64,000 nt of DNA from Candidatus Roizmanbacteria bacterium GW2011_GWC1_37_12. Its GTDB lineage: Bacteria > Patescibacteriota > Microgenomatia > UBA1406 > GWC2-37-13. Positions 9,310-62,153 of the stretch are shown here, in pieces (positions within the stretch are counted from its first letter, which is position 1; each line of letters starts with the position of its first letter). A program made the position numbers and the translations under genes. The DNA lies in assembly GCA_000991135.1 (NCBI GenBank), contig LBST01000006.1:46663-110662 (forward strand). The letters run 5' to 3'. The notes beneath the pieces were generated by a model. That model ran no database searches. It worked only from the letters and a program-made list of their open reading frames with translations, and was not told the origin of the DNA.

Positions 9310-10734
9310 ATGGCCAAAAAAACTTTTTATATTACTACCACCGCTCCTTATGTCAATGCTGATCCGCACATCGGTTTTGCTCTAGAAATCATCCAGGCCG
9401 ACGCCATCGCCAGATTTCATAGGCAATTCGGGGACGAGGTAGCTTTTGGTTTTGGAACTGACGAGCACGGCTTGAAAATTTATCGGAAAGCACTTGAGGC
9501 AAAAAAAGACCCGCTTAAATACTGTAGTGAATATGCTAAAAAATTTGACGATTTAAGAAAAGCTCTGAACCTAAGCACAACTCATTTTATTCGAACCACT
9601 GACAAACCACATATCAAAGCTGCTCAAGAATTTTGGAATCGTTGTTTTAAAAATGGAGATATTTACAAAAAAAATTATCGAATCAAGTACTGTGTTGGCT
9701 GCGAACTTGAAAAAACCGACTCTGAACTTTCTGATGGAAAATGCCCGGTTCACCCCAACCTAAAAATAGAAAACTATGAAGAAGAAAACTATTTTTTCCG
9801 ATTTTCCAAATACCAAAAAAAACTTCTAGAACTCTATGAAAAAAATCCTGATTTTGTCTTTCCTAAAAACAGACTTCTAGAGATAAAAACCTTTGTCGAA
9901 AAAGGACTTGAAGATTTTAGCGTTTCTCGATTAAAGAAAAAAATGCCTTGGGGTGTTGACGTCCCTAATGATCCAGAACACGTTATGTATGTCTGGTTCG
10001 ATGCTCTGGTTTTCTATATCTCAAATATTGGCTGGCCAGAAAATGAAAAAGAATTCGATTTATGGTGGCCAGTGATTCAAGTAGCAGGCAAAGACAATTT
10101 GAGACAACAATCAGCTATCTGGCAGGCGATGTTGATGTCAGCTGGATTACCAAATTCAAAACAAATATTTATCCATGGATTTATTACATCTAATGGACAA
10201 AAGATGAGTAAAAGCCTCGGCAATGTCATTAATCCATTCGACTTGGTAAAAAAATATGGGAGTGATACCGTCCGATATTACCTCTTAAAAGAAATTCCCT
10301 CTTTTGACGACGGCGATTTTTCATATCGAAGAATGGATGAGATCTACAACGCCGATCTCGCAAATGAACTAGGAAATTTAGTTTCTCGGTTAACAAATCT
10401 TGGAGAAACAGATAGTTTAACTGTCACCGATAAAACAATTGAACAATATAACAATAAAACGATAAAACAATATAACAATTTCCAATTCAACCTTATTCTC
10501 GAAAACATCTGGAAGCAAATAAAAACTCTTAATAAAACCATTGACGACTTTGCTCCATGGAAAAAAACACCTGAAGACAGAAAAGATTTTTTACTTCAAT
10601 GTTTCAAAACATTAAAATCCATTGCTTGGCAACTAGAACCATTTCTTCCGGAAACCGCCGAAAAAATAATTATAGCGGCAACATCAATAACAAAAATTAA
10701 AAAAATTCCTCCACTTTTTCCCAGATTGAAATGA
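9310..10734 (+). CDS. metG: Methionine--tRNA ligase (short form, no C-terminal tRNA-binding domain)
   Basis: Class I motifs PHIGFA (HIGH) and KMSKSLGN, and a Cys knuckle YCVGCE...CPVH. Contains an in-frame 24-nt tandem duplication. Confidence 0.9.
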   Translation: MAKKTFYITTTAPYVNADPHIGFALEIIQADAIARFHRQFGDEVAFGFGTDEHGLKIYRKALEAKKDPLKYCSEYAKKFDDLRKALNLSTTHFIRTTDKPHIKAAQEFWNRCFKNGDIYKKNYRIKYCVGCELEKTDSELSDGKCPVHPNLKIENYEEENYFFRFSKYQKKLLELYEKNPDFVFPKNRLLEIKTFVEKGLEDFSVSRLKKKMPWGVDVPNDPEHVMYVWFDALVFYISNIGWPENEKEFDLWWPVIQVAGKDNLRQQSAIWQAMLMSAGLPNSKQIFIHGFITSNGQKMSKSLGNVINPFDLVKKYGSDTVRYYLLKEIPSFDDGDFSYRRMDEIYNADLANELGNLVSRLTNLGETDSLTVTDKTIEQYNNKTIKQYNNFQFNLILENIWKQIKTLNKTIDDFAPWKKTPEDRKDFLLQCFKTLKSIAWQLEPFLPETAEKIIIAATSITKIKKIPPLFPRLK

Positions 10735-30676: not shown

Positions 30677-32204
30677 GTGGATCGATAATAATTTAGTGAA
30701 AATACTTCTTACCGGATTTATTTTTTTGGTGCCTTTGTGGCCAAAACTTCCCATCCGGATGATTAACTATACATATATCGCTATTCGCTTTGAAGACATC
30801 TACTTGGTATTCATGATCTTGGCTTTTTTTGTCCAGCTTATTCGAAAGAAAATCATTCTGAATAAGAGCTATCTTTGGCTCTTTATTCTTTTTTGGCTGT
30901 CACTTTTCGCCTCGGTAATCTGGGGTATCTATTTTGAAAAAACAATTATTTTTTATCATCTCGGATATCTCCACGCCTTGCGCCGAGTTGAATATATGAG
31001 CGCCTTCTTTATTGCCGCGTCAGTAATTAAGACCAAAGAAGACTTCTTTCAGTTAATAAAAGTCTTTTTTTTCTCGGTCTTTCTAGTCTCTCTGTACGGA
31101 CTGGGCCAAAAATATCTCGGTTTTCCGGCGGTGCAGACTATGAATCCGGAATATGCCAAAGGCTACATTCTCAATCTCACTCCTGAAGCAAGAATTTCCT
31201 CGACCTTTGCCGGCCATTATGACCTGGCTTCTTATTTAGCTTTTGCCATACCTCTTATAATCTCTTTTTCATTCTTCTTCAAAAAAAAACTGTATCTAAT
31301 TTATTACTTTTTTGCCCTGGTCGTACTTACTTATACTTCTTCTCGAATTTCTTTTGTTGCCTATGCTTTTACAATTTTTGGACTGCTTATTTTTATTAGA
31401 AAATATCTCTTTTTAATTTTTGCCATTATTTTGACTGCTTTAGTTATGGCCTCATCCGGCGATCTCATTAATAGGTTTTTAAAAACAATTCAGTTCAAAA
31501 GAATTCTCGTCAATCAAAAAACAGGTTCTGTCTATATTAACCAAAATATTACTACCAAAGAACTTCCCGCCGGATCCTTCTATGTACCGGTAAAAAAACC
31601 TCCTAAACAAGTTCTTCCTACCGAAGCCGTGGCAACCGAAGTGGCAAAAATAGAAACATTTAAGGAACAACTCATTGAACAAAAAGTAAAGGAAGCGACA
31701 AAAAATAAAAACTTATCCCAAAATGAAATAAACAAATTGATTGCTTCTCTATCGGCTGAATTAAAAGCCATCAATACGTATGTTTCCGATATTTCTTTTG
31801 CCACCCGGCTTCAGATAGAGTGGCCAAGGGCGATCGACGCTTTCAACAAAAGCAAAATTCTTGGAACCGGCCCTTCTTCAATTACTGAGGCGACCGACAA
31901 CGACTTCCTCCGCTGGCTTGGAGAAACAGGACTTTTGGGGACGACTCTTTTTCTGATGATTTTATTTCTGATAGTTAAGCGCGTCTGGGGCAGGGTCATA
32001 AAATTTTCACCAGAAAATAAATTGATCGCCCACGGATTCACTTTTGCATTAATAGCTCTTTTGATAAACGCCACCTATATCGACGTCTTTGAAGCTTCAA
32101 AAGTGGCTTATACTTTTTGGACAATCGCAGGATTATTCGTAGGATATTCTTCTCTAAATTCAAAAGTCAAGAGTCAAGAGTCAAAAATGAAAGTTAAAAG
32201 TTAA
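30651..32204 (+). CDS. O-antigen ligase/polymerase-like (Wzy_C) membrane protein
   Basis: More than 10 TM helices with a periplasmic-type loop. The ATG at 30651 (MKKLSGFF) is preferred to 30600. The C-terminal tail NSKVKSQESKMKVKS is encoded by a GTCAA repeat. Confidence 0.7.
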   Translation: MKKLSGFFKWIDNNLVKILLTGFIFLVPLWPKLPIRMINYTYIAIRFEDIYLVFMILAFFVQLIRKKIILNKSYLWLFILFWLSLFASVIWGIYFEKTIIFYHLGYLHALRRVEYMSAFFIAASVIKTKEDFFQLIKVFFFSVFLVSLYGLGQKYLGFPAVQTMNPEYAKGYILNLTPEARISSTFAGHYDLASYLAFAIPLIISFSFFFKKKLYLIYYFFALVVLTYTSSRISFVAYAFTIFGLLIFIRKYLFLIFAIILTALVMASSGDLINRFLKTIQFKRILVNQKTGSVYINQNITTKELPAGSFYVPVKKPPKQVLPTEAVATEVAKIETFKEQLIEQKVKEATKNKNLSQNEINKLIASLSAELKAINTYVSDISFATRLQIEWPRAIDAFNKSKILGTGPSSITEATDNDFLRWLGETGLLGTTLFLMILFLIVKRVWGRVIKFSPENKLIAHGFTFALIALLINATYIDVFEASKVAYTFWTIAGLFVGYSSLNSKVKSQESKMKVKS

Positions 32205-32270
32205 AAAATGACAAAATCACTTTTTAATTTTGACTTTAACTTTTAAATTCTAACTTTTGACTTTTAACTT
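32158..32270. repeat. About 110-bp palindromic GTCAAAAG/CTTTTGAC-family repeat
   Basis: Left arm AAAGTCAAGAGTCAAGAGTCAAAAATGAAAGTTAAAAGTTAAAA; right arm TTTTGACTTTAACTTTTAAATTCTAACTTTTGACTTTTAACTT. Related to 56774-56890. Confidence 0.85.
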
Positions 32271-33707
32271 ATGAAAAGAGTCGATTTTCTCATATTGGCT
32301 TTCATCCTAATTATTGCTTTTTTTTTCCGTCTCTATAAAATCAATACTCCGCTCGCCGATCTCCATTCCTGGCGTCAGGCTGATACGGCAGCTGTTGCGA
32401 GAAATTTTGTTACCCAAGGATTTGATCTTTTGCACCCCCGATACGACGATATGAGCAATGTTCAATCGGGTCTTGACAACCCTCAAGGCTACCGGATGGT
32501 TGAATTCCCCTTGTATAACGCCATTTTTGCCTGGCTTTTTAAACTCTTTCCCGCGATTCCACTTACCCAATGGGGTCGCCTAACCTCAATATTTTTTTCT
32601 CTAATAACGATTTCCGTTATCTATTACCTTTTAGCCAAAGAACAAAATAGATCGACTGCCTTTTGGGCTTCGGCTATTTATGCTATTTTTCCTTTTTTCG
32701 TTTTTTTTTCACGAGTAATCCTCCCAGAATCGACAGCTTTGGGTTTTACAATGTTATCGATATTCTTTCTTTATCTATTCTCAAAAAAACAATATAGCAA
32801 TATAACAATTTATCTATTTTATTTACTATCTCTTATTTCTTTTGCTGCAGCTCTTCTCATCAAACCAACCGTGATATTTTGCATGATTCCAATCGCTTAT
32901 CTCTTCTTCCAATCTTACAAATGGAAATTCCTTAAAAAACCTTCTTTCTATCTTTATTTCTTAATCGCTCTAACCCCCCTAATCTTGTGGAGAAACTATA
33001 TCGGCAGATTCCCTGAAGGCATCCCCGTCAACGAATGGCTGCTGACAAGCGTTAATACAGGAGGTAGTTTACAAAAGATTTTCTTTAGGCCGGCTTTTTT
33101 TCGCTGGATATTCTTTGAAAGAATAAACAATCTAATTCTTGGCGGTTACCTGACTGTATTTTTCATTTTAGGTATCATTGCCAAAAGGAAAAATTTTTTT
33201 CTCTACTCTTATCTCCTATCTTCTATCTCCTATCTTCTAGTTTTCCAGGGTGGTAATGTCCAACACGAATATTATCAAACATTAATACTACCATTTTTGG
33301 CAATTTTCTCCGCTCTTGGAATAAATTTTCTTTTTGAAAAAAAATCTAACATCTATCATCTAGCATCTATCATCTTAGTTTTTGTTCTGCTCTTATTCTC
33401 TTGGTATTTTTCTTATTATAAAGTCAAAGACTACTATCAATATAGTCAAGAATTAATTCAGGAGGCAAAGATATTGAATGATTTAACCAGTAAAGAAGAT
33501 AAAATCGTCACCGATAGAATGGGAGACACGACCCTTTTGTATCTTGCCGAAAGGCGTGGCGCGCCGTCAATTTACAAAGAACCAGAAGACCTGAAGAAAC
33601 TTGGGTATAGCTTTTTAGTTACTTCGAGCCAATATCAAATCGAAAAGATGGAAAAAAACTTTGAAATAATTTTTGAAAATGACAAATTCACGCTATTTTC
33701 TTTATGA
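32271..33707 (+). CDS. ArnT/PMT-type (GT39/GT83-like) membrane glycosyltransferase
   Basis: Polytopic membrane protein with N-terminal SWRQADTAAVARNF and RMVEFPLYN loop motifs. Confidence 0.75.
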   Translation: MKRVDFLILAFILIIAFFFRLYKINTPLADLHSWRQADTAAVARNFVTQGFDLLHPRYDDMSNVQSGLDNPQGYRMVEFPLYNAIFAWLFKLFPAIPLTQWGRLTSIFFSLITISVIYYLLAKEQNRSTAFWASAIYAIFPFFVFFSRVILPESTALGFTMLSIFFLYLFSKKQYSNITIYLFYLLSLISFAAALLIKPTVIFCMIPIAYLFFQSYKWKFLKKPSFYLYFLIALTPLILWRNYIGRFPEGIPVNEWLLTSVNTGGSLQKIFFRPAFFRWIFFERINNLILGGYLTVFFILGIIAKRKNFFLYSYLLSSISYLLVFQGGNVQHEYYQTLILPFLAIFSALGINFLFEKKSNIYHLASIILVFVLLLFSWYFSYYKVKDYYQYSQELIQEAKILNDLTSKEDKIVTDRMGDTTLLYLAERRGAPSIYKEPEDLKKLGYSFLVTSSQYQIEKMEKNFEIIFENDKFTLFSL

Positions 33708-36048: not shown

Positions 36049-36978
36049 ATGCATCCCTTACAATCAAACGAATGGGAAAACGCCAGAAAAGAAGTGGGGA
36101 TAAAAACTCTTCGTTTAGATGATTTTTTATTAACTATTCATAAAATTCCATTCACAAACTTTAAAATAGGTTATCTACCAAGATCAACTATGCCGTCTAA
36201 TAGAGTTTTAAATAAACTTTATGAGTACGGAAAAAAGAACAAAGTTGTTTTTATAAAAATAGAGCCATACGAAGAAAAGTCAAAAGTCAAAAGTCAAAAG
36301 TCAAAATTACAACTTAAAAGTAAAAATTTGATAGAATCAAAACATCCTTTATTTCCTACTTGGACACAGATTTTAGATTTAAACAAAACTGAAGACGAAC
36401 TTCTTAAAAGTTTTCACTCCAAAACCCGTTATAACATTCGTCTGGCAGAAAAAAAAGGCGTAGTTGTAAAAGAAGAATCAAATGAAAAAGGATTCAAAGT
36501 CTTTGCCAAACTCTATTTCGAAACCACCAAAAGACAAAAATACTTCGGCCACGACGAAAAATATCACAAAATCGTTTGGGACAATCTAAAAAACAGCCTT
36601 TCCCATATCTTAATTGCTTATTACAACAATATTACTCTTGCTGCTTATGAACTTTGGTATCTGGACGGAATAATCTATTATGTTTATGGAGGAACATCAG
36701 AGCTCCATCGAAATTTAATGGCTTCAAACTTGCTGATGTGGGAAGCCATTAAACTAGGTAAACGTCTTGGCGCTAAAAAATTCGATATGTGGGGTTCTTT
36801 GCCTCCTGATTACGACCCAAAGCACTCATGGTCCGGCTTCACCCGCTTCAAACAGGGCTACGGAACGAAATTTGTGGAAATGGTGGGAAGTTATGACTTG
36901 GTAATCAATCCTGTTTTATATAGAATCTATAATATTATTTATGCCCTTCGTGAAATTTATTTGATGTTTAAAAGATAG
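36049..36978 (+). CDS. FemAB-family (tRNA-dependent) peptidoglycan aminoacyltransferase-like protein
   Basis: HSKTRYNIRLAEKKG, YGGTSELHRNLMASNLLMWEAIK, FDMWG and GFTRFKQGYG. Confidence 0.8.
   Translation: MHPLQSNEWENARKEVGIKTLRLDDFLLTIHKIPFTNFKIGYLPRSTMPSNRVLNKLYEYGKKNKVVFIKIEPYEEKSKVKSQKSKLQLKSKNLIESKHPLFPTWTQILDLNKTEDELLKSFHSKTRYNIRLAEKKGVVVKEESNEKGFKVFAKLYFETTKRQKYFGHDEKYHKIVWDNLKNSLSHILIAYYNNITLAAYELWYLDGIIYYVYGGTSELHRNLMASNLLMWEAIKLGKRLGAKKFDMWGSLPPDYDPKHSWSGFTRFKQGYGTKFVEMVGSYDLVINPVLYRIYNIIYALREIYLMFKR
36276..36330. repeat. In-frame GTCAAAAG-repeat insertion (KSKVKSQKSKLQLKSKN) in the femAB-like gene
   Basis: AAAGTCAAAAGTCAAAAGTCAAAAGTCAAAATT. Same repeat as 55949-55979. Confidence 0.8.
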
Positions 36979-37506
36979 ATTATTTATATCCTTATCCCAA
37001 TTTTTCGGATTGTCTTGAATATATTTACGGATTTCTGCCAATGATTCTTCATTGCGGATGACGTGGTCGTAGAATGACCGTTGCCATTTAAAGATATTTT
37101 GTCCTAATTGATGGATTAATTTTGATGAATTCATTTTGAAAAACCCAATAATTTTTGACAACAACATATTGCGTCGTTGCAACCAATCATTAAAATACGA
37201 TTTATCCTGTAGGGACAATTCATGAATTGTCCCTACAATTGGTTCATCCTGTTTAATTACAATAATTCCATGAACGTGATTAGGCATAATAATATATTCA
37301 TCAATAAATACATTTTGATAATATTTTGGTATTTCTATCCAATATTTTTCAACAATCTTTCCGTATTCACTCAATATCATTTCTCCATTAATAATCTCTC
37401 CAAACAAACATTCTCTATTTTTCGTACAGATTGTGACAAAATAATAACCAGATGAAGAATAATCGAAATGCTTTAATCTATTTGTTTTTCGGTAACGGTA
37501 AATCAT
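36916..37506 (-). CDS. Y1 (HUH) transposase-like protein, IS200/RayT family, second copy
   Basis: MPNHVHGIIV (HUH) and IRKYIQDNPKNW (Tyr helix). The 3' end overlaps the femAB-like gene by 63 nt. Confidence 0.75.
   Translation of the reverse strand: MIYRYRKTNRLKHFDYSSSGYYFVTICTKNRECLFGEIINGEMILSEYGKIVEKYWIEIPKYYQNVFIDEYIIMPNHVHGIIVIKQDEPIVGTIHELSLQDKSYFNDWLQRRNMLLSKIIGFFKMNSSKLIHQLGQNIFKWQRSFYDHVIRNEESLAEIRKYIQDNPKNWDKDINNLSFKHQINFTKGINNIIDSI
37209..37236. repeat. Perfect 28-bp palindrome GTAGGGACAATTCATGAATTGTCCCTAC (copy 1, inside the Y1 transposase-like gene)
   Basis: Identical copy at 56563-56590. Both are translated as VGTIHELSL. Confidence 0.9.
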
Positions 37507-37511
37507 TGTGT

Positions 37512-37564
37512 AGTGACAGAATATTATTCTGTCACTCGATTGTCTACGGACTATAACCTACAAA
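37512..37564 (-). promoter_or_regulatory. Upstream module of the second Y1 gene: 25-nt hairpin abutting the start codon plus the TTTGTAGGTTATAGTCCGTAGACA motif
   Basis: AGTGACAGAATA-T-TATTCTGTCACT (37512-36), 5 nt from the ATG. The motif at 37541-64 (reverse complement) matches 5828-5851 and 28927-28950. Confidence 0.5.
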
Positions 37565-44792: not shown

Positions 44793-44834
44793 GTCATTCT
44801 GGCAAGGCCGCCTTAGGCGGCCGCGTCCAGAATC
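44793..44834. repeat. GTCATTCTGG...CCAGAATC palindromic unit (type 1)
   Basis: GTCATTCTGGCAAGGCCGCCTTAGGCGGCCGCGTCCAGAATC with an inner GGCCGCC/GGCGGCC hairpin. Confidence 0.9.
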
Positions 44835-46045: not shown

Positions 46046-46233
46046 GATTCTGGAGTCGTCCCGATTAATCGGGACTCCCCAGAATGACATAAACATCTGA
46101 TTCTGGAGTCAGCGCCTATCGGCGCTTCCCCAGAATGACAAAAAAACTTAGGTCATTCTGGCAAGTGAACGAAGTGAACGCGTCCAGAATCGTTGTTGGC
46201 AGATTCTGGAGTCGTTTTACTCCCCAAAATGAC
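46046..46233. repeat. Array of four palindromic units of the GTCATTCTGG/CCAGAATGAC family
   Basis: U1 46046-88, U2 46099-139, U3 46152-91, U4 46202-33. The outer arms are conserved and the inner segments differ. In U1 and U2 the inner segment is itself a hairpin. Confidence 0.9.
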
Positions 46234-46770
46234 GAGATTTCTAACTTCATTAATGAATCCTTCAACTAATAACTCTTCAGCTTGTTTTTCATTTAATCCC
46301 CTAGTCTTAGTATAAAACATCTGCTCTTGATCAAGTCTCCCAGTTGTTGAACCATGAGTACAGAAAACATCGTTGGCCAGAATTTCCAAATATGGTTTTG
46401 AATCGATAAAACAGTCCTTTGACATCATCAAGTTTTGATTTTTTTGATAAGCGTGTGATTTTTGAGCGTTTTTCTCAATTCTGATTAAACCCCGATAGTA
46501 TAACTTTGACTCATCATAAAAAACACCTTTAATCAGCAGGTTTGACATCGACAAAGGAGCCTTATGATTTTGAAAAGTATTGATTTTGAATTCGCAATTC
46601 TTCTTTCCTATATAAAGACCGTAAATATTCAACTGCACTCCCGGAGTGATGATGTCGAAAATTAAATCTCCAGATAAATTCTCAAAATAAACCGAATAGT
46701 TTCCAGGTTTATCGTATATTAATCTTTTTTCTTTTGTTTCTAATTTTATAATTTGGAATTTATTTGACAT
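46153..46770 (-). CDS. sufD: SufD-like Fe-S assembly protein (short), with a repeat-encoded C-terminal tail
   Basis: AYQKNQNLMMS..PYLEILANDVFCTHGSTTGRLDQEQMFYTKTRG. The last roughly 25 aa (ILGSKTTPESANNDSGRVHFVHLPE) are read from units U4-U3. Confidence 0.7.
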   Translation of the reverse strand: MSNKFQIIKLETKEKRLIYDKPGNYSVYFENLSGDLIFDIITPGVQLNIYGLYIGKKNCEFKINTFQNHKAPLSMSNLLIKGVFYDESKLYYRGLIRIEKNAQKSHAYQKNQNLMMSKDCFIDSKPYLEILANDVFCTHGSTTGRLDQEQMFYTKTRGLNEKQAEELLVEGFINEVRNLVILGSKTTPESANNDSGRVHFVHLPE

Positions 46771-49347: not shown

Positions 49348-50430
49348 CTATGTTATTATGAATTCTTCAAGTATTTTATAGTAAAGAGAGAGACTTTTGA
49401 TATCTATCCACTCATTTTTCTGATGCATGCCGCCGCCTTCTAAACCAAAGTGAACTGCGGGGATTTTTTTTATGCTGTAAAAACGGCCATCCGTTGCGTA
49501 ATGATCTTTTGTGAATAAGTCTTTTTCTTTATTATATCTTTTCAGTATCTGTGCTAACTTTTTTACTTCCGGAACAGTTCTGTCAGTTTCAAGCCCGGGC
49601 TCGTTCATTTTTACTTTGATCTCTGCTTGGGGAAAATATTTTTTTATTTTACTGATAATTTTTTCTGGCTGATCTTGGTATATTCTCCGTATGTCAAAAG
49701 TAGCTTCGGCATGATCGGAAATGACATTAAAGGCTGTGCCGCCATTGATAAGATTAAGACTATATGTTGTTGCCCAAATTTCCCTTTTAGGGAGCGGGTT
49801 CTCTGTATAAAATCGACTGATATCGCTTGCCATTTTGACATTTGCATTTTTACCATCCCAGGGACGAGAACCGTGAGCAGACTTTCCTCTATGCGTAACC
49901 GTTATTTTAAGAATACCCTTATGAGCCATTAATATCTTTAAGTTGGTTGGTTCTCCACCCAGAAAAAGACGTGTTTTGGCCTCTTTTTTTTCAGAAAAAA
50001 TTTTCGTTCCGGAAAAACCACCGATTTCTTCATCAGTGACTAACGTGAGCCCCACATCATCAGGTAGTTTGTTTTTTTCGCTAAGATTTCTGAATAACTC
50101 TATTATTGCAGCAGCTGCTCCTTTCATATCATAGACTCCTCGACCAAACGCTTTATCTCCCTTTATTTTTAGTTTAAACGCTTCTCGCAAAGCGGGGACG
50201 ACATCAAGATGCGCATTCAAGAGAATCCGAAAGGGCTTGTTAACTAAATGATTTTTTCCGTAAATCAGTAGACTCGAGAAACCATTATTAATATATCTTT
50301 TAATGAGCAAGTTTTTATTATTCAGATAGCCGGCAACGTAATTGATGATCTTACCGCCTTCTTTTTTATCGCTGGATACAGACTTAAATTCAACCAATTT
50401 TTCTAAAAGTGCTAAAATATTTTTTTCCAT
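49348..50430 (-). CDS. M20 family metallohydrolase (ArgE/DapE/N-acyl-amino-acid deacylase-like)
   Basis: LNAHLDVV, GRGVYDMK, VTDEE, GKSAHGSRP and NGG..FNVI. The ATG at 50430 is preferred to the TTG at 50442. Confidence 0.85.
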   Translation of the reverse strand: MEKNILALLEKLVEFKSVSSDKKEGGKIINYVAGYLNNKNLLIKRYINNGFSSLLIYGKNHLVNKPFRILLNAHLDVVPALREAFKLKIKGDKAFGRGVYDMKGAAAAIIELFRNLSEKNKLPDDVGLTLVTDEEIGGFSGTKIFSEKKEAKTRLFLGGEPTNLKILMAHKGILKITVTHRGKSAHGSRPWDGKNANVKMASDISRFYTENPLPKREIWATTYSLNLINGGTAFNVISDHAEATFDIRRIYQDQPEKIISKIKKYFPQAEIKVKMNEPGLETDRTVPEVKKLAQILKRYNKEKDLFTKDHYATDGRFYSIKKIPAVHFGLEGGGMHQKNEWIDIKSLSLYYKILEEFIIT

Positions 50431-50458
50431 AGTTATTAACAAAAGTTACGCAGTAAAC

Positions 50459-50541
50459 GTCATTCTGGCAAGGCCGGAGGCCGCGTCCAGAATCTGCACA
50501 ACGATTCTGGAGTCGCTCGTTACCTCGCTCCCCAGAATGAC
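50459..50541. repeat. Composite GTCATTCTGG...CCAGAATGAC repeat (type 1 plus type 2 units)
   Basis: GTCATTCTGGCAAGGCCGGAGGCCGCGTCCAGAATC-TGCACAAC-GATTCTGGAGTCGCTCGTTACCTCGCTCCCCAGAATGAC. Confidence 0.9.
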
Positions 50542-50561: not shown

Positions 50562-51668
50562 TTAAGCAACCGTAATTTTAAAAACGGTATATTTATTTAG
50601 TTTTGCCTCGTCTATTTTGAATAGACTATCAGTTTTAGCTACATCAATTGTGCCATTTTTTTCCGGAATTTCTTTTTGTAAAATGTCATCGGCAAAGTAC
50701 CATTTAGTTAGACAGATGTCATTTGCATACTTAAAATTAGAGAGAGTAGAAATATGACAATTTAAAAGTTGACCCCAACCGGATTCAATCATGCCGCCGC
50801 ACCACACAGGAATATTGTTTTGAGCGGCCAACTCTGATATAAGTTTTGCTTGCCAATAGCCGCCGACTCGCTGGGGCTTGATATTTATTATTTTGCACGC
50901 GCCAATTTTGATCGCCTGCTCGGCGATATGATAATTACCGATGCTTTCGTCCAGGCAGATCGGTGTTTTTATCTGTTTTTGTAAAATTGAATGGTCAACA
51001 ATGTCATTATAGGTTAACGGTTGTTCAATCATTAAAAGATTCATTTTATCTAATTCTTTGAAAACTTTTATATCTTTTAATCTATAGGCAGAATTAGCAT
51101 CGACAAAAAGCGGTAGATCTGGGTAATCCTTTCTTATTGCGGCGATGAGTTTTAGGTCTATTCCCGGCTTTATCTTAACCTTAGCTCTTTCAGGCGAATA
51201 CGTTTTAAGATAGCGCAAAACTCTGCTTATTGAATCTTTAAGATCAACCCCAAGTCCTATACTGATAGCCGCCGCTATCTTCGTTTTAGTTCCGCCCCAA
51301 AGTTTTCTTAATGGCTTACCTGTTTGTTGTGATTTTAAATGCCAAAAAGCCGATTCAATCACGGTTTTGCTAAAATTATTTCCCCGCATCAATTTATAAA
51401 TGGCTTCTAACTCTTCAATCGTGTTTATTTTTTTATTCAAAATTGCCGGAACAAGATAGGTCTTTAAGAGATGAATGGTGCCATCGTTAAAATCTGGTTC
51501 GTAAAATGGAAAATCAAAATTTGCAGACTCTCCTATCCCGATTAAGCCGTTTTTATCAAAAAGCTTGATTAAAATGATTTCGCGGTTGGTCATTGAAGTG
51601 AAACTGACACGAAAGGGTTCTTTAAGAGGAAGGTATATCTTGTAAATCTCGGCTTTTGTAATGTGCAT
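50562..51668 (-). CDS. Enolase-superfamily enzyme of the o-succinylbenzoate synthase / N-acylamino-acid racemase group
   Basis: KxK AKVKIKPG; metal ligands VDANSAY, MIEQPL and LDES; second base NIKPQRVGG. Confidence 0.85.
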   Translation of the reverse strand: MHITKAEIYKIYLPLKEPFRVSFTSMTNREIILIKLFDKNGLIGIGESANFDFPFYEPDFNDGTIHLLKTYLVPAILNKKINTIEELEAIYKLMRGNNFSKTVIESAFWHLKSQQTGKPLRKLWGGTKTKIAAAISIGLGVDLKDSISRVLRYLKTYSPERAKVKIKPGIDLKLIAAIRKDYPDLPLFVDANSAYRLKDIKVFKELDKMNLLMIEQPLTYNDIVDHSILQKQIKTPICLDESIGNYHIAEQAIKIGACKIINIKPQRVGGYWQAKLISELAAQNNIPVWCGGMIESGWGQLLNCHISTLSNFKYANDICLTKWYFADDILQKEIPEKNGTIDVAKTDSLFKIDEAKLNKYTVFKITVA

Positions 51669-51676
51669 ACAATTAA

Positions 51677-52609
51677 TTATAGCGCTTCCTTTAAACAATC
51701 AGTGTTATTTTCACTAAAATTTTTTACAGTAACTATATAATGACGCATTTCACCTTTTTCATCAGGCAAGGCAACATAATCAACTGCGGTATGACTCTGA
51801 TTCTCAAATAACTCCGTAAAAACTATTCTGTGCTGTTCTGACCAAAGTAGAGCTTCGTCACCCCATAGATCCTTAACAACCGACGGGTTTACCGAGGTTT
51901 CGACAAAAGCGAGTTGGGACGGTGGATTTACATGAGTTAGACATCTGCCTTCTCTGACTTCTTCTGGGTCAAAAAGGAAAACGTCATCAGGATGATTCTC
52001 CATATATTTAGTATAATCTTGTTGTCCAGGATAAACTGCTCCTTTAACCCAGGCACTACCAGGTTTAGCCTTGTAATAAAATCGGTCTGACGGCATATCT
52101 CTATGTTCATTTCCCCCTTCCTTTTCTATTCCTTCAAAAAAATCCCGTTTATATTCATTTGAGTGCATCCTGCTTTTGTGGAGATATAAATTGACATTTC
52201 TTGCAACAAAAGGGTCTGAAGTAAGTGCGAGAGTCTCAATAAACGGAGAGAGCTTATTTTCTATTAGACCGTAGTTTACCTTCATTAATTCGTATCCAAG
52301 ACCAAGTCTCTGATACTCTTCGTCCACGCCAAGTTGGTGAAGGAACAAATAAAGAGCACCTTCTGGAGGTATTTTGATAATACCGATCGAGGCGCCCATC
52401 ATTCTGTCTCCGTCAAAAATACCGTGACATGTCCCTATATTATCCTCTGTTAATGCGGCATAGTCCCAAAGTTTGTTTATTTCTGGTAAACCCCAAGCGC
52501 TTTGAGCGACTCTTGTCCAGCTGTCACGATCCCCAGAAGTTAGGGGACGCTTGATAGCTCTTGCTAAAATTTCAGCTCTCTGTGTTTCTATTCTTGCTGC
52601 GATTGCCAT
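51677..52609 (-). CDS. GNAT-family N-acyltransferase with an unassigned C-terminal domain
   Basis: LHQLGVDEEYQRLGLGYELM is a classic GNAT motif A (Q/R-x-x-G-x-G/A). The C-terminal half (about 150 aa) has no recognised family. Confidence 0.65.
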   Translation of the reverse strand: MAIAARIETQRAEILARAIKRPLTSGDRDSWTRVAQSAWGLPEINKLWDYAALTEDNIGTCHGIFDGDRMMGASIGIIKIPPEGALYLFLHQLGVDEEYQRLGLGYELMKVNYGLIENKLSPFIETLALTSDPFVARNVNLYLHKSRMHSNEYKRDFFEGIEKEGGNEHRDMPSDRFYYKAKPGSAWVKGAVYPGQQDYTKYMENHPDDVFLFDPEEVREGRCLTHVNPPSQLAFVETSVNPSVVKDLWGDEALLWSEQHRIVFTELFENQSHTAVDYVALPDEKGEMRHYIVTVKNFSENNTDCLKEAL

Positions 52610-54478: not shown

Positions 54479-55633
54479 TCACAAATTTAGCCTTGGAATT
54501 CGGTCTAATTCATCAATGTCTTTGACAAATAATTCTTTTTCAGCCTTATATGAGGCAGCGGCACCGATCATGGCAGCGTTATCGCCTGTCAGATATTTGT
54601 AAGTTGGAAATAAAACTTCTCCACGATGTCTATCAACTAATTTTCTGAATAATTGGCGAAGCCGAAGATTGGCGATCACTCCACCGCCGATGACCAATCG
54701 ATTAATTCCAGTCTGCCTCATCGCTTTCTCTGTCTTTTTTATAATCGTGTCAAAGACCGCTTCCTGAAACGATGAACACAGTCTTCGTAAATCATCGGTC
54801 ATTCTGGGGAGCGTAGCCGAGTCAGACTCGGCGAATGCGACTCCAGAATCGTTGTGCAGATTCTGGACGCGGCCTTCGGCCTTGCCAGAATGACGTCGGG
54901 TCACAAAATAATAAAATGACGTTTTCAAGCCGGAAAAAGAAAAATTCAGGTCGTTGCTTTTTAACATCGGTCTAGGAAAAATATAAAAATCCTTGTTATG
55001 AACATCTCTTGCCAATCTTTCAATCACCGGACCACCCGGATAACCTAGTCCGAGAAGTTTGGCGACTTTATCCAAGGCTTCGCCGGCAGCATCATCAAGA
55101 GTTGAACCAATAACATTGTATTTCAAATGGTCGTTGAATTTGACAAACTCTGTATGTCCTCCAGAAATAATAAGAGCCAAATAAGGAAATTTGAAATTTA
55201 TTTTCGGATTACCTTGGCTGTTTTGCACAAACGCCGAATAGATGTGGCCTTCAAGGTGATTAACAGCAATCAATCTTTTGTTATATTTTTTTGCCAATTC
55301 TTTGGCTTTTTTAATGCCGACCTCAAGAGCTACTGCTAAACCCGGACCCTGGGTGATAGCGATTGCTTGAATCGTTGTCATTCTGGCTTGTCCAGAATCT
55401 AACAACGATTCTGGGTGCGCGAACTTCGTTCGCTTACCAGAATGACGCAGCGCTTCATCAACAACAAAATCTATTCTCTCCTCATGCGCCCGCTTGGCCA
55501 GCGATGGTACCACCCCTCCCCATTTTTTATGAATCAAAACCTGCGAATAGATGACATTGGATAAAACCCGGCGACCGTCAACAACTGCCGCAGCGGTTTC
55601 ATCGCAGGAAGTATCTATGGCAAGAATTTTCAT
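54479..55633 (-). CDS. tsaD: tRNA N6-adenosine threonylcarbamoyltransferase TsaD, carrying two in-frame repeat insertions
   Basis: ILAIDTSCDETAAAV, NHLEGH, SGGHTE, DDAAGEALDKVAKLLGLGYPGGP, GGGVIAN. The start at 55633 (MKIL) is preferred. Confidence 0.9.
   Translation of the reverse strand: MKILAIDTSCDETAAAVVDGRRVLSNVIYSQVLIHKKWGGVVPSLAKRAHEERIDFVVDEALRHSGKRTKFAHPESLLDSGQARMTTIQAIAITQGPGLAVALEVGIKKAKELAKKYNKRLIAVNHLEGHIYSAFVQNSQGNPKINFKFPYLALIISGGHTEFVKFNDHLKYNVIGSTLDDAAGEALDKVAKLLGLGYPGGPVIERLARDVHNKDFYIFPRPMLKSNDLNFSFSGLKTSFYYFVTRRHSGKAEGRVQNLHNDSGVAFAESDSATLPRMTDDLRRLCSSFQEAVFDTIIKKTEKAMRQTGINRLVIGGGVIANLRLRQLFRKLVDRHRGEVLFPTYKYLTGDNAAMIGAAASYKAEKELFVKDIDELDRIPRLNL
54798..54894. repeat. 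Composite GTCATTCTGG...CCAGAATGAC repeat inserted in frame in tsaD
   Basis: 97 bp with the same architecture as 50459-50541 in the opposite orientation. Translated as RHSGKAEGRVQNLHNDSGVAFAESDSATLPRMT. Confidence 0.9.
55377..55446. repeat. Second, shorter composite repeat of the same family in frame in tsaD
   Basis: GTCATTCTGGCTTGTCCAGAATC-TAACAAC-GATTCTGGGTGCGCGAACTTCGTTCGCTTACCAGAATGAC. Translated as RHSGKRTKFAHPESLLDSGQARMT. Confidence 0.9.
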
Positions 55634-55637
55634 GAAA

Positions 55638-55741
55638 CAATTTCTAATTTCTAATTGACCTAAAGAATATCCAAATCCCAATTGGGAAACAATTGGTCAT
55701 TATTTAGATTAATTAGAATAATTAGGTTAATTAGGTCAATT
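55638..55741. repeat. AT-rich palindromic repeat, TTTCTAATTTCTAATT family (copy B)
   Basis: Aligns with 23376-23493. Its right end contains the stop codon of tsaC-tsaE. Confidence 0.85.
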
Positions 55742-56773
55742 TTTGATAATTACCTCTCTTTTCTTTTCGCTTAAGTATCTCATCTTCACGTATACTATTT
55801 TCCCTTTACTTTTAAGCAGTTCTATTATCTCTCTTGCCTTTTCTCCCCACTCAAAACACAAAATATTTCCCGGCTTTAATAATCTCTCTATTCCTAAATC
55901 TTTAAACTCCTCTCTCTCTTCAATGTTATAAAGATCAAGATGAATAAATTTTGACTTTTGACTTTTGACTTTTGACTTTCCTATTCCGTATTCATAATAG
56001 ATTACAAAAGTCGGGGAAATGATGTTTTTTATTCCGAGGGTTTCTCCAAGTCCTTTAACAAAAATTGTTTTGCCAACTCCTAATTCACCTTCGATTATGA
56101 AAATCAATGGCTTTATTACGGACAGGTCGCGACCTGTCCCTACATTTTTTAAAATATCTTTTGCAATCTTTTTCGTTTCTTCGGGTGATTTGGAAATAAA
56201 TTTTTCTTTTCTTAAAAAATTAAAACTTCCTTTCCTCAAAATTTTTACTTCAGATTGTGTCAGATCAATAACTGTTGACGGTTTATTTCTCGGAAGTTTT
56301 CCGGCATCAACAATCAGATCAATTAATTTCTTTTTGCTCCCCGAAAGTTTTGATAATAGAGTTTTTACAGAATAATGCGGCGGATTGTTTGAAAGATTCG
56401 CAGAAGTAGCCGTCACTGGCTTCCCAAATCTTTTTACCAATACTTTGATGTGTCGATACATCGGAATTCTTACTCCCAATGTTCCTTTTTCTGATTCTAA
56501 TAAACGATCTGTCCTATGTTTAGAATTCAAAACAACGGTAAAAGGTCCTGGTAAAAGACTGCGTAGGGACAATTCATGAATTGTCCCTACAAGTACAATG
56601 TCTTTCATCATTTCAAAATCGGAAACAAAGACAGAGATTGCCTCATTGGTCGCATCAACCAACAATCCGTAAACAGTATCAGACGGAAAAACCACCAACC
56701 CTCCTAGTTTAAGAGTTTTTAAAGTAGAATTTATTACTTTATTGTGATTATGTGATATTTTTAGTATCTTCAT
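55736..56773 (-). CDS. Fusion of TsaC/YrdC (threonylcarbamoyl-AMP synthase) and TsaE (P-loop ATPase), with two in-frame repeat insertions
   Basis: The N-terminal part has GGLVVFPSDTVYGL, LLPGPFTVVL, SANLS and STVIDLT. The C-terminal part has EGELGVGKTIFVKGL, SPTFVI, HLDLY and FEWGE. Confidence 0.8.
   Translation of the reverse strand: MKILKISHNHNKVINSTLKTLKLGGLVVFPSDTVYGLLVDATNEAISVFVSDFEMMKDIVLVGTIHELSLRSLLPGPFTVVLNSKHRTDRLLESEKGTLGVRIPMYRHIKVLVKRFGKPVTATSANLSNNPPHYSVKTLLSKLSGSKKKLIDLIVDAGKLPRNKPSTVIDLTQSEVKILRKGSFNFLRKEKFISKSPEETKKIAKDILKNVGTGRDLSVIKPLIFIIEGELGVGKTIFVKGLGETLGIKNIISPTFVIYYEYGIGKSKVKSQKSKFIHLDLYNIEEREEFKDLGIERLLKPGNILCFEWGEKAREIIELLKSKGKIVYVKMRYLSEKKREVIIKN
55949..55979. repeat. 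In-frame GTCAAAAG-repeat insertion (KSKVKSQKSK) in the TsaE part
   Basis: TTTTGACTTTTGACTTTTGACTTTTGACTTT on the plus strand. Confidence 0.85.
56563..56590. repeat. Perfect 28-bp palindrome GTAGGGACAATTCATGAATTGTCCCTAC (copy 2, inside the TsaC part)
   Basis: Identical to 37209-37236. Translated as VGTIHELSL. Confidence 0.9.
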
Positions 56774-56890
56774 AAGTCAAAATTCAAAAGGTAAAAATCA
56801 AAAATACAAGTTAAAATTAAAAAGTTTTATCAAATACTTTTGACTTTTGACTTTAACTTTTGAATCTTGACTCTTGATTTTTAACTTAAT
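56774..56890. repeat. About 115-bp palindromic GTCAAAA/TTTTGAC-family repeat filling the tsaCE-ftsH divergent spacer
   Basis: AAGTCAAAATTCAAAAGGTAAAAATCAAAAA...CTTTTGACTTTTGACTTTAACTTTTGAATCTTGACTCTTGATTTTTAACTT. Confidence 0.85.
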
Positions 56891-61565: not shown

Positions 61566-62153
61566 GTGAAACTCTACGCAAATCTTTCCCGGAAAAAAAT
61601 AATCAGCATTTTGGCGATTCTTTTTATTTTGTTTCAATTGATATTAAACCGTAAATCTATCGATTTTAAATCTTTCTTTGTATCGCCAACTCCTTCACCA
61701 ACATGTACGGGTCAGGCATGCCTGACCCCTACAATTACGCTTTCCACAAAACAACTTATTAGGGTCGTTCGCGTCATTGACGGAGATACAATTGAGATTG
61801 AAGACGGGCAAAAAGTCCGTTACATCGGCATCAACTCTCCAGAACTTCATGACCCCAGGCGGCCGGTCGGGTGCTTTGCTAAACAATCTTATGAAGAAAA
61901 CAAAAAATTAGTGGAAGGCAAGACTATCACAATGGAAAGGGATATTTCCGAGACAGATAAATACAAAAGGCTCCTTCGCTACGTTTGGATAGGCGATGTA
62001 TTAGTCAACGATTATCTCGTTCGTCAAGGCTTTGCTTTAACTTCAACTTTTCCTCCGGATGTCAAATACGAAACGCAATTCCTTGAAGCCGAAACCGAAG
62101 CAAGAGAAAACAATCGCGGTCTTTGGTTTAGTTGCCCATCAAAGCAAAAATAG
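61566..62153 (+). CDS. Secreted thermonuclease (SNase) family protein
   Basis: N-terminal TM/signal segment, VIDGDTIE, RYIGINSPE and RYVW...VN..LV..G. GTG start. Confidence 0.8.
   Translation: MKLYANLSRKKIISILAILFILFQLILNRKSIDFKSFFVSPTPSPTCTGQACLTPTITLSTKQLIRVVRVIDGDTIEIEDGQKVRYIGINSPELHDPRRPVGCFAKQSYEENKKLVEGKTITMERDISETDKYKRLLRYVWIGDVLVNDYLVRQGFALTSTFPPDVKYETQFLEAETEARENNRGLWFSCPSKQK

What the first reader, a model, noticed from the sequence alone, without database searches (positions are those of the whole stretch)
54798..54894. Palindromic repeat inserted in frame in the essential t6A gene tsaD (RPE-like behaviour)
This 97-bp composite element has the same architecture as the intergenic copy at 50459-50541, in the opposite orientation. 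Its sequence is GTCATTCTGGGGAGCG...GACTCCAGAATC-GTTGTGCA-GATTCTGGACGCGGCCTTCGGCCTTGCCAGAATGAC. It lies inside tsaD and is read through as RHSGKAEGRVQNLHNDSGVAFAESDSATLPRMT, between FSGLKT and the conserved F.EAV.D helix. The gene product is about 384 aa against roughly 340 for typical TsaD (size from memory), and all catalytic motifs flank the insert intact. The known precedent is the Rickettsia palindromic elements, which insert in frame into ORFs. I am not aware of this being described for this repeat family or lineage.
Basis: partly seen in the sequence, partly recalled or inferred. Interest (0 to 1): 0.7.

Follow-up and report, generated by a model that had tools for sequence, protein, structure and literature searches.

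The report
In-frame palindromic repeats inside tsaD
A small hairpin-forming selfish DNA repeat, of a class already described in Rickettsia and other bacteria, sits twice inside the tRNA-modification gene tsaD of an uncultured Roizmanbacteria (CPR) genome and appears to be read through as two extra protein loops: a real, clean example of a known phenomenon in a lineage where I found no report of it.

Summary
Window 54798-54894 is a 97-nt palindromic repeat dimer, the reverse complement in architecture of the intergenic copy at 50459-50541. It lies in frame in tsaD (54479-55633, minus strand). Solved TsaD structures and many close orthologues lack both segments, and the AlphaFold model gives them low confidence between well-modelled helices. 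A metagenome census found 90 unique dimers of this family. Of these, 34 (38%) are read through by long ORFs, including UvrA, RecJ, ArgRS, GatB, YchF, PheS and ATP synthase. I found no frame-breaking intragenic copy and no target-site duplication. The unit, (C/T)GTC-AT-stem-loop-stem-AT-C, arranged as inverted dimers, fits the CGTC-tagged REP superfamily of Di Nocera et al. 2013. That superfamily includes Rickettsia RPE-4 and RPE-6, and in-frame dimers of 20-30 aa in housekeeping genes are already reported for it. So this is a new member of a known kind, in CPR. How it moves is unknown: a RAYT-like gene lies in the window, but it is tied to a different GTAG palindrome. Interest is moderate.

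The parts
54479..55633 (-). tsaD (384 aa), host gene carrying two in-frame repeat dimers
   Evidence: PDB phmmer hit 8iey_A, E = 5.9e-73, split into two stretches with gaps at both inserts. Identical to P0001, named Candidatus Roizmanbacteria. Catalytic columns are invariant. Against L001, amino-acid identity is 0.80 and third-codon-position identity 0.46, which indicates purifying selection.
54798..54894 (-). The finding: a 97-nt CGTC-type REP dimer (two inverted units plus an 8-nt spacer) at 'site 2', translated as a 33-aa loop, RHSGK...LPRMT
   Evidence: RNA fold -47.5 kcal/mol, z = -6.2. AlphaFold pLDDT is below 50 for residues 251-277, between helices 234-248 and 275-308. Absent in L001 and in most orthologues.
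55377..55446 (-). Second in-frame dimer ('site 1'): a long unit, a 7-nt spacer and a minimal 23-nt unit, translated as the 24-aa peptide RHSGKRTKFAHPESLLDSGQARMT
   Evidence: RNA fold -34.4 kcal/mol, z = -8.3. It is a 16-residue gap against 8iey. The orthologous copy sits at the identical codon position in L001. Block-mean pLDDT is 72 for residues 61-70 and 53 for 71-80.
50459..50541 (.). Intergenic dimer of the same family, in the opposite unit order
   Evidence: It lies between the ORFs 49348-50442 and 50562-51698.
46152..46233 (.). Dimer of the same family. Its terminal ATGAC supplies the TGA stop codon of ORF 46153-46770.
46046..46139 (.). Two single units of the family (46046-46088 and 46099-46139) in the same intergenic spacer
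44793..44834 (.). Single unit, intergenic; RNA hairpin of -26.3 kcal/mol

Best explanation
The element is a dimer of a short palindromic repeat of the CGTC-tagged REP class, the class that contains Rickettsia RPE-4 and RPE-6. The unit is (C/T)GTC, a 7-bp stem that starts with A-T (ATTCTGG/CCAGAAT), a loop, and a short C tail. The loop is either 5 nt (CTTGT) or carries a variable, often nested, hairpin. Two inverted units separated by 5-12 nt form a non-autonomous, selfish element that spreads without a target-site duplication, by an enzyme not yet identified.

Copies landed in two peripheral loops of TsaD. They persist because they sit in a stop-free frame, preserve the reading frame, and are tolerated as floppy 24- and 33-aa excursions of a still-functional enzyme. 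Selection is the filter: the element is GC-richer than its host, so it is easy to read through, and only frame-preserving copies in permissive loops survive.

Shown: repeat family membership, in-frame status, loop positions, insert-free orthologues, purifying selection on the host gene, and family-wide intragenic behaviour. Inferred: mobility, actual translation of the segment, and near-neutrality.
For: Repeat family and architecture.

Loop positions. The inserts are gaps against solved TsaD structures. They are low-confidence excursions between confident helices in the model. Insert-free orthologues exist.

Host gene is constrained. Amino-acid identity to L001 is 0.80 against 0.46 at third codon positions. 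Catalytic columns are intact.

Family census, 90 unique dimers:
- 34 are read through by ORFs of at least 120 aa.
- Pfam confirms UvrA, RecJ, ArgRS, GatB, YchF, PheS and ATP synthase alpha/beta. For ArgRS, GatB, PheS and ATP synthase the element lies inside a single domain envelope.
- No split gene turned up among the 5 candidates. I checked one by Pfam (L210 has a complete DNA_alkylation domain), one by reading the sequence (L162), and three by their stop and ATG positions only.
- Peptides differ by frame between hosts (VILG or RHSG at the start, RMT or QND at the end), so no conserved protein module is involved.
- Coding copies have 2.8 open frames of 6. Non-coding copies have 1.7, about the same as shuffled elements at 1.8. 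This points to a selection filter rather than design.
- No target-site duplication. Position -1 is C or T in 75 of 88 copies, and +1 is A or G in 80 of 88.

Independent hits in the same TsaD loops:
- L128 carries the family at site 1 five codons downstream and in another frame, and also at site 2.
- L002 and L003 carry other stem families at site 2, and L003 has a single unit at site 1.
- 18 of 19 expanded site-2 loops among 120 orthologues carry CGTC-type frame signatures.

The literature definition of CGTC REPs, their in-frame dimers, and the lack of flanking RAYT genes match these observations (PMC3733652).
Against: - No transcript or peptide data exist, so translation of the segment is inferred.
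- Neither insert is a clean insertion relative to the available orthologues, so exact boundaries and the ancestral state are not defined.
- The stem is 7 bp, against 8-9 bp in the published CGTC families. The published CCA tail is only a conserved C here.
- Long, variable nested loops are unusual for the class.
- The core of the orthologous site-1 copy is far better conserved between window and L001 than synonymous sites of the gene: third-position identity 0.79 against 0.46. Neutral decay of a dead insert would not predict this. It needs gene conversion, re-insertion or selection on the hairpin.
- No mobilising enzyme was found.
Confidence: 0.8

Rival explanations
1. The hairpin element is removed or skipped before the protein is made, for example by an intron-like excision of the cloverleaf-shaped RNA or by translational bypassing. 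Under this reading TsaD would have no extra loops.
For: The dimer folds into a very stable four-way junction in the mRNA (-47.5 and -34.4 kcal/mol). Its stems covary while loop and flanks stay constant, as expected for a recognised structure. Known precedents for hairpin bypass elements exist in yeast mitochondria (my own knowledge, not checked here).
Against: All 34 intragenic dimers keep the frame and are stop-free. None of 82 scorable copies splits a gene. If elements were excised, roughly two thirds of intragenic copies should break the frame. Coding copies are enriched for open frames relative to non-coding ones. No Rfam family matches.
Confidence: 0.04
2. The inserts are retained because they do something. 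They could act as mRNA structures that tune tsaD translation or decay, or as protein loops that changed TsaD partner binding in CPR. They would then be more than tolerated junk.
For: The site-1 core is conserved at the nucleotide level well beyond synonymous-site divergence between window and L001. The same two loops are occupied in many orthologues. Site 1 follows helix 43-63 of the model. From my memory of TsaB-TsaD complex structures, the corresponding helix lies in the TsaB-TsaD interface; I did not check this here.
Against: The same sequences occur in intergenic DNA, in both orientations, and in dozens of unrelated proteins in different frames. Many close orthologues lack the inserts. The model shows low-confidence, mostly unstructured segments. 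The nucleotide conservation is a property of the repeat family everywhere, not of tsaD.
Confidence: 0.12
3. The match to a repeat is an assembly or binning artefact: repeat-induced mis-assembly placed the element in tsaD.
For: The source is a metagenome-assembled genome, and repeats are a classic cause of chimeric joins.
Against: The identical 384-aa protein is recorded on 12 contigs from several sources. An independent genome (L001, GCA_040960175.1) has the orthologous site-1 copy at the same codon. L128 has both sites occupied. The reading frame and the flanking TsaD sequence are intact on both sides.
Confidence: 0.01

Closest known systems
CGTC-tagged REPs (Di Nocera, De Gregorio and Rocco 2013, PMC3733652), including Rickettsia conorii RPE-6 (CGTC-1) and RPE-4 (CGTC-4)
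   Same: - An unpaired (C/T)GTC tag and a stem that starts with A-T, T-A.
- A 5-nt loop in the minimal unit and a short C-initial tail.
- Predominantly inverted dimers that can fold as one large structure.
- Location just downstream of ORFs, sometimes supplying the stop codon.
- In-frame intragenic dimers encoding 20-30 aa, sometimes twice per ORF, often in repair genes and tRNA synthetases.
- No RAYT gene flanked by them.
- The same reading-frame peptides (V-I-x... and ...G/R-M-T).
   Different: - The stem is 7 bp (TCTGG core), against 8-9 bp.
- The tail is not CCA in this genome.
- Many units carry 14-35-nt variable, often nested, hairpins in place of the loop.
- The host lineage is CPR (Roizmanbacteria and other Microgenomates), which was not sampled in 2013.
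- The intragenic share in my sample is 38% of dimers.
- The host gene tsaD is not in the paper's list.
Rickettsia palindromic element RPE-1 (Ogata et al. 2000, as summarised in PMC10969869)
   Same: A selfish palindromic repeat inserted in frame in unrelated housekeeping genes, at positions compatible with the protein fold.
   Different: RPE-1 is about 100-150 bp, encodes a conserved peptide and is confined to Rickettsia. Here the element is 60-106 nt and modular, and it is read in several frames. Sequence similarity to RPE-1 was not tested.
GTAG REPs / REPINs mobilised by RAYT transposases
   Same: Short palindromic units, inverted doublets with a short spacer, no target-site duplication, and a likely single-stranded hairpin substrate. 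A RAYT-family gene is present in the window (36916-37506).
   Different: The tag is CGTC/GTCAT, not GTAG. The RAYT gene and its homologues are not flanked by these units; instead they carry a GTAG palindrome of their own. Classical REPs are overwhelmingly extragenic.
Classical bacterial MITEs (Correia/NEMIS, RUP, ERIC, Nezha, QMITE)
   Same: Small, non-autonomous, with terminal inverted repeats, occasionally in frame in genes.
   Different: No target-site duplication, no recognisable parent IS, and the 10-nt terminal repeats are simply the two REP stems.
Coding palindromes and GC-rich hairpin elements in mitochondrial genes (for example Nematomorpha, PMC6649704)
   Same: Hairpin-forming inverted repeats embedded in, and translated with, conserved protein genes of an AT-rich genome.
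   Different: An unrelated lineage and unrelated sequences. I took only the abstract of that paper.

Membership tests
CGTC-tagged REP superfamily (PMC3733652) | Unpaired tetranucleotide tag CGTC (variants TGTC, CCTC) at one end of the hairpin | tested here: met
   All units begin with GTC. The base before it is C in 41 and T in 34 of 88 dimer flanks. In tsaD both copies read CGTCAT.
CGTC-tagged REP superfamily (PMC3733652) | Stem of 8-9 bp whose first two pairs are A-T and T-A | tested here: inconclusive
   The stem ATTCTGG/CCAGAAT starts with A-T, T-A as required, but it is 7 bp, one shorter than the published families.
CGTC-tagged REP superfamily (PMC3733652) | Loop of 4-5 nt of a few major types (other lengths noted in some species) | tested here: inconclusive
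   Minimal units have a 5-nt loop (CTTGT in 27 of 38 short units). 142 of 180 units instead carry 14-35 nt with collars (GGAG..GACT, CAAG..GCGT, TAAG..GCAT) and nested hairpins.
CGTC-tagged REP superfamily (PMC3733652) | Short unpaired tail at the untagged end, consensus CCA | tested here: inconclusive
   All 10 window units, found by a search that did not require it, have C after the stem, but the next bases vary. ATCCAG tails are common in the hits from other phyla.
CGTC-tagged REP superfamily (PMC3733652) | Units mostly arranged as inverted dimers able to fold into one larger structure | tested here: met
   Four dimers and three single units in the window. At least 119 metagenome loci carry dimers. 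The fold is a four-way junction.
CGTC-tagged REP superfamily (PMC3733652) | No RAYT or IS200-type gene flanked by the repeat | tested here: met
   The window's RAYT-like gene and six loci of three of its homologous proteins have no GTCAT units within the flanks held, up to 4 kb. No Y1 transposase hit in 1.67 Mb of repeat-bearing loci (weak test).
Rickettsia palindromic elements (RPE-1 to RPE-10) | Sequence similarity to an RPE consensus, and occurrence in Rickettsia | not tested
   No RPE consensus was available in the tools. The lineage is CPR. The link to RPE-4 and RPE-6 rests on the published assignment of those to CGTC REPs.
Rickettsia palindromic elements (RPE-1 to RPE-10) | In-frame insertion in functional ORFs at structurally permissive sites | tested here: met
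GTAG REP / REPIN-RAYT system | GTAG tetranucleotide at the foot of the hairpin | tested here: not met
   The tag is (C/T)GTC-AT.
GTAG REP / REPIN-RAYT system | Cognate RAYT gene flanked by the repeats | tested here: not met
   The RAYT-like gene is instead associated with an internal GTAG palindrome.
Classical MITE | Terminal inverted repeats together with a target-site duplication | tested here: not met
   The 10-nt terminal inverted repeats are present, but 78 of 88 copies have no flanking direct repeat at all and 7 share only 1 nt.

The most novel reading that the evidence does not exclude
CPR (Microgenomates) genomes may be a place where CGTC-type REP dimers are still active and unusually invasive of coding sequence.

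What I saw that is compatible with this:
- About 38% of sampled dimers are intragenic.
- The same two TsaD loops were colonised repeatedly by different stem families.
- Elements are nested in each other's loops.
- Repeat cores are held constant at the nucleotide level across species whose synonymous sites are saturated.

If this reading is right, it would imply ongoing copying or gene conversion by a still-unknown machinery. It would make these small genomes a tractable system for finding the long-missing mobilising enzyme of CGTC REPs, and it would identify repeat insertion as a general source of CPR-specific protein loop expansions.
Probability: 0.3. Interest if true: 0.65.

Novelty: new member of a known kind. 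Interest (0 to 1): 0.4.

Why it matters
In-frame selfish palindromes show how much foreign sequence essential enzymes can absorb. They are also a practical nuisance: they inflate and mis-align CPR proteins, create spurious 'lineage-specific insertions', and seed repeat-derived hypothetical ORFs.

If the phenomenon is as common in CPR as this sample suggests, many of the odd loop expansions in CPR housekeeping proteins have a simple explanation. These small genomes would also become a good place to look for whatever mobilises CGTC-type REPs, which was an open point in the 2013 description.

For tsaD itself, the likely consequence is two dispensable surface loops.

Tried and rejected
- **Peptide search of the protein database.** I tried to count host proteins using the insert peptides. 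One search was wasted.
- **Literature search for repeat-derived peptides** (AKAGIQ, RLRGND, GQARMT and similar): no papers. The search for GGAATGAC returned only primers. Searches for CPR or Patescibacteria plus MITE or palindrome found nothing relevant.
- **Rfam.** No family matches the elements at the gathering threshold or at E <= 1.
- **Transposase link.**
  - The window's RAYT-like protein hit only itself.
  - The flanks of its homologues hold no GTCAT units.
  - I therefore rejected the idea that this RAYT visibly owns the family.
- **Orientation bias relative to transcription.** 22 against 10 in coding copies and 13 against 10 in intergenic copies, which is too weak to use.
- **Palindromic origin of other site-1 expansions.** I thought I saw this by eye in L002, but the repeat finder found no inverted repeat, so I dropped the claim.
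- **Chance in the genome-contig scan.** By my arithmetic an 18-base pattern with 31 gap lengths should give about 500 chance hits in 596 Gb, so single hits in GC-rich genomes may be noise. However, 83 of 141 matches have the minimal 23-24-nt length and recurrent loops, which a uniform chance model does not give.
- **Possible split gene at L162.** The region is a repeat-rich non-coding stretch and holds no rRNA.
Full report
**The observation**

Window 54798-54894 reads GTCATTCTGG-GGAG-[hairpin]-GACT-CCAGAATC / GTTGTGCA / GATTCTGG-ACGC-[hairpin]-CTTG-CCAGAATGAC. The intergenic copy at 50459-50541 has the same two unit types in the reverse order and orientation.

The family is well above chance:
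- The terminal 10-mer gives 16 hits against 2.65 expected.
- The inner 8-mer gives 14 hits against 2.33 expected.
- A generic search for GTCAT-N5...N5'-AT hairpins finds ten units of this family, against about one hit in shuffles.

The units lie at 44793-44834, 46046-46088, 46099-46139, 46152-46233 (dimer), 50459-50541 (dimer), 54798-54894 (dimer) and 55377-55446 (dimer).

As RNA the dimers fold into a four-way junction. It has a 10-bp outer stem, a central 8-9-bp stem and two variable arms. Energies are -47.5 kcal/mol (z = -6.2) for the finding and -34.4 kcal/mol (z = -8.3) for the second tsaD copy.

**The host gene**

ORF 54479-55633 (minus strand, 384 aa) is TsaD. The best solved relative is 8iey_A (E = 5.9e-73). 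The alignment breaks into residues 1-247 and 285-365 and has a 16-residue gap around residues 66-81. The protein is identical to a database entry named for Candidatus Roizmanbacteria and recorded on 12 contigs.

The element is read through as RHSGKAEGRVQNLHNDSGVAFAESDSATLPRMT. Both length excesses of this TsaD are therefore repeat-derived.

The metal-binding His pair (H126, H130) and the D351-N352-A353 motif sit in invariant alignment columns. Against the closest relative found (L001, GCA_040960175.1), amino-acid identity outside the inserts is 0.80, while third-codon-position identity is only 0.46. The gene is thus under purifying selection.

**Are these insertions?**

Among 120 orthologues of 64-72% whole-protein identity, lengths run from 333 to 414 aa. 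Nearly all the variation falls in two alignment regions, which are exactly the two sites. Insert-free forms read ...EALKKHK-ITEIDYI... and ...FYYFLKKNPNQTSEVKLLASSF....

L001 carries the same family dimer at site 1, at the identical codon position. At site 2 it has no GTCAT element, only a small hairpin, AACCCCGCTAAGCGGGGTT.

Neither window insert is a clean addition relative to these orthologues. The loops differ by about 18 and 26 codons rather than 24 and 33. Exact boundaries therefore cannot be fixed.

The AlphaFold2 model (58-sequence alignment, mean pLDDT 79.7, pTM 0.79) gives pLDDT below 50 and no secondary structure to residues 251-277, between confident helices 234-248 and 275-308. 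Block-mean pLDDT for the first insert is 72 (residues 61-70) and 53 (71-80), after helix 43-63. This is what peripheral, floppy loops look like. True solvent exposure was not computed.

**Recurrent use of the same loops**

- L128, a more distant TsaD from a metagenome, has the TCTGG family at both sites. Its site-1 copy starts five codons further downstream and is read in another frame (VILG... instead of RHSG...), so it is an independent event.
- L003 carries GTCATTCCCG...CGGGAATCCAG / TTGAA / TGGATCCCCGA...TCGGGGATGAC at site 2, and a single unit GTCATCCCCGAGGAGGCGGGGATC at site 1.
- L002 carries a related site-2 element.
- Of 19 orthologues with a site-2 loop expanded by at least 8 aa, 18 show the reading-frame signatures of such elements (V-I-P......G-M-T...R-N-D).
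- Site 1 is expanded in 39 orthologues, mostly by sequences of other or unknown origin. I could not confirm an inverted repeat in the L002 example.

**Family-wide behaviour**

Hits came from CPR groups (Roizman-, Levy-, Shapiro- and Daviesbacteria, WWE3, Kazan, Peribacteria). They also came from Nitrospirota, Acidobacteriaceae, Chloroflexota and Proteobacteria.

By my arithmetic several hundred chance hits are expected in 596 Gb. However, 83 of 141 matches are the minimal 23-24-nt hairpin, and the loop CTTGT recurs many times. This does not fit a uniform chance model.

From it and the window I extracted 90 unique dimers of 60-106 nt:
- 34 (38%) are read through by an ORF of at least 120 aa with at least 30 aa on each side.
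- Pfam confirms UvrA, RecJ, ArgRS, GatB, YchF, PheS and ATP synthase alpha/beta among the hosts. In ArgRS, GatB, PheS and ATP synthase the element lies inside a single domain envelope.
- From the first scan, further read-through hosts appear, by my reading of the translations, to be CarB, LepA, DNA ligase, Tgt and UvrC; UvrC has three or four copies.
- Of the 56 other copies, 8 are at contig ends and 43 are in ordinary intergenic contexts.
- Five have an ORF ending at the element with another following. On inspection these five are separate genes or non-coding DNA. I checked one by Pfam, one by reading the sequence, and three by their stop and ATG positions only.

I found no gene split by a frame-breaking copy.

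The encoded peptides differ by frame from host to host (VILG or RHSG at the start, ARMT or QND at the end). The one frame never used is the one in which ATGAC gives a TGA stop.

Coding copies have 2.8 open frames of six. Non-coding copies have 1.7, the same as composition-matched shuffles at 1.8. The element is 51% G+C in hosts of about 38%. The element is therefore easy to read through by composition, and selection keeps only the frame-compatible copies.

There is no target-site duplication. The flanks extend the palindrome by one base, Y before GTCAT and R after ATGAC. Orientation relative to the ORF is only weakly biased, 22 against 10.

**Structure is constrained**

I selected sequences only on the fixed parts GAT...ACAAG...ATGAC, with no requirement for pairing. 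Of 92 such sequences, 87 have fully complementary arms, spread over at least 14 stem types (TCTGG, TCCCG, TCCGGG, CCTGAA and others).

Between the window and L001, the orthologous site-1 copy is identical in its core. All differences fall in the variable arm. Its third-position identity is 0.79, against 0.46 for the rest of the gene. Neutral decay of a dead insert does not predict this. Gene conversion from other copies, re-insertion at the same point, or selection on the hairpin could each explain it. I cannot separate these with two genomes.

Many long units carry another small hairpin nested in the loop, between conserved collars GGAG..GACT, CAAG..GCGT or TAAG..GCAT.

**What it is called**

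Di Nocera, De Gregorio and Rocco (2013, PMC3733652) sorted prokaryotic REPs into GTAG-tagged and CGTC-tagged superfamilies. They define CGTC REPs as follows:
- An unpaired CGTC (or TGTC/CCTC) tag.
- An 8-9-bp stem that starts with A-T, T-A.
- A 4-5-nt loop and a short tail near CCA.
- Mostly inverted dimers.
- No RAYT gene flanked by them.

Rickettsia conorii RPE-6 and RPE-4 are CGTC-1 and CGTC-4. The paper lists intragenic in-frame copies. More than half of these are dimers or groups encoding 20-30 aa, sometimes twice in one ORF. Many lie in uvrA/B/C, dnaE, DNA ligase and tRNA synthetase genes. Its supplementary table gives peptides such as VIPAKAGI, SFPRKRES, DSRFRGND...AGMT and RHSGGGRNL.

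The window family, (C/T)GTC-AT-TCTGG...CCAGA-AT-C, fits this class in tag, stem start, minimal loop, dimer organisation, genomic context, in-frame behaviour and even reading-frame peptides. It departs in three ways:
- A 7-bp stem.
- A tail that is only a conserved C.
- Long variable loops.

tsaD is not in the paper's list, and CPR genomes were not available in 2013. I found no paper describing such repeats in CPR in the searchable library. The library lacks most subscription journals, so this is not proof of absence.

**How it moves**

This is unknown. The window does contain a RAYT-family gene at 36916-37506. It scores 34.1 bits on Pfam Y1_Tnp. On NCBIfam REP_Tyr_transpos it scores 57.6 bits, below the family cutoff of 80. 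It has the HUH motif NHVHGII and the Tyr motif WQRSFYDHVIR.

Neither this gene nor six loci of three of its homologous proteins have GTCAT units within the flanks held, up to 4 kb. Instead each carries, in frame between the HUH and Tyr motifs, a perfect 28-nt GTAG...CTAC palindrome. This agrees with the 2013 statement that CGTC REPs lack a dedicated transposase. A hairpin-dependent, single-strand mechanism without target duplication is the most likely kind, but that is inference.

**Verdict**

The element is best filed as a new family of a known class (CGTC-tagged REPs, the class of RPE-4 and RPE-6) in a new lineage and a new host gene.

The rivals are each disfavoured by the data above:
- RNA-level removal or bypass.
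- A selected function for the inserts.
- An assembly artefact.

Interest is moderate. The phenomenon is known, but three things deserve a proper genome-wide study: its apparent frequency in CPR, the repeated colonisation of the same loops, and the nucleotide-level maintenance of the cores.

Noticed in passing
window 36916-37506 (minus strand); L243-L253: A RAYT-family (REP-associated tyrosine transposase) gene carries, in frame between its HUH and Tyr motifs, a perfect 28-nt palindrome GTAGGGACAATTCATGAATTGTCCCTAC (37209-37236, peptide VGTIHELSL). Three homologous proteins of 64-72% identity (six loci) keep the identical 28-mer. More distant homologues have different perfect 28-mers at the same position (GTAGGGAACAGGCATGCCTGTTCCCTAC in L252, GTAGGGACAGGTCTAGACCTGTCCCTAC in L253). 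So the arms covary while GTAGGGA...TCCCTAC stays fixed. This looks like a cognate GTAG REP housed inside the transposase gene itself. I did not find this described.
   Followed up: partly
window 56563-56590, inside ORF 55736-56773 (Sua5-TsaE fusion); L001 8785-9879: The same 28-nt GTAG palindrome lies in frame (VGTIHELSL) in the Sua5 domain of the neighbouring t6A gene. The L001 orthologue has GTIHELSL at a different place (aa 243-250), where the window protein has what looks like a decayed version, GTGRDLSV. A second palindrome family therefore also inserts in frame, in the same pathway.
   Followed up: partly
window 55736-56773 (minus strand), N-terminal Sua5 domain: Relative to L001, the window's Sua5 domain lacks about 15 residues (KAVRKLIEFKNRPPGK region). 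The Pfam Sua5 match starts only at profile position 41. From my own knowledge, the missing stretch corresponds to a conserved Lys/Arg motif region of Sua5/YrdC, so this domain may be impaired.
   Followed up: no
window 61704-61733, inside ORF 61566-62153 (SNase family): A related palindrome, TGTACGGGTCAGGCAT/ATGCCTGACCCCTACA, lies inside a staphylococcal-nuclease-like ORF.
   Followed up: no
window 37509-37535: Directly upstream of the RAYT-like start codon sits GTAG-TGACAGAATATTATTCTGTCAC. This is a GTAG-tagged hairpin whose arms share the CAGAAT/ATTCTG core with the GTCATTCTGG family. It is a single copy in the window. The shared core may be coincidence.
   Followed up: partly
window 46152-46161 and ORF 46153-46770: The stop codon of this ORF is the TGA inside the repeat terminus CCAGAATGAC. 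In L210 a complete DNA-alkylation-repair protein gains a SHSGKR tail from the element.
   Followed up: no
window 32148-32279 and 56770-56887: AT-rich imperfect inverted repeats built from AAGTCAA / AAGTTAAAA-type motifs lie in two intergenic regions, one of them just upstream of Sua5-TsaE. Their nature is unknown.
   Followed up: no
L001 site 2 of tsaD (within 10001-11077): The 'empty' site 2 of the closest relative holds a perfect 8-bp hairpin, AACCCCGC-TAA-GCGGGGTT, encoding TPLSGV. It may be a different mini-palindrome or a remnant.
   Followed up: no
L024 (Thermodesulfovibrionales), L073, L048: In-frame units are not confined to CPR, nor to one copy per gene. A 921-aa ORF in a Thermodesulfovibrionales contig reads through SVIPARRESVRKKDSGQARMTK. 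An ORF I read as UvrC carries three or four units. A radical-SAM-like ORF carries units of three stem families. These hosts were not checked with Pfam.
   Followed up: no
L124-L242 (metagenome dimers): Many long units contain a second small hairpin, of the ATCC(C)GCC...GGCGGGAG type, nested in the loop between conserved 4-nt collars. This suggests that elements insert into each other's loops.
   Followed up: partly
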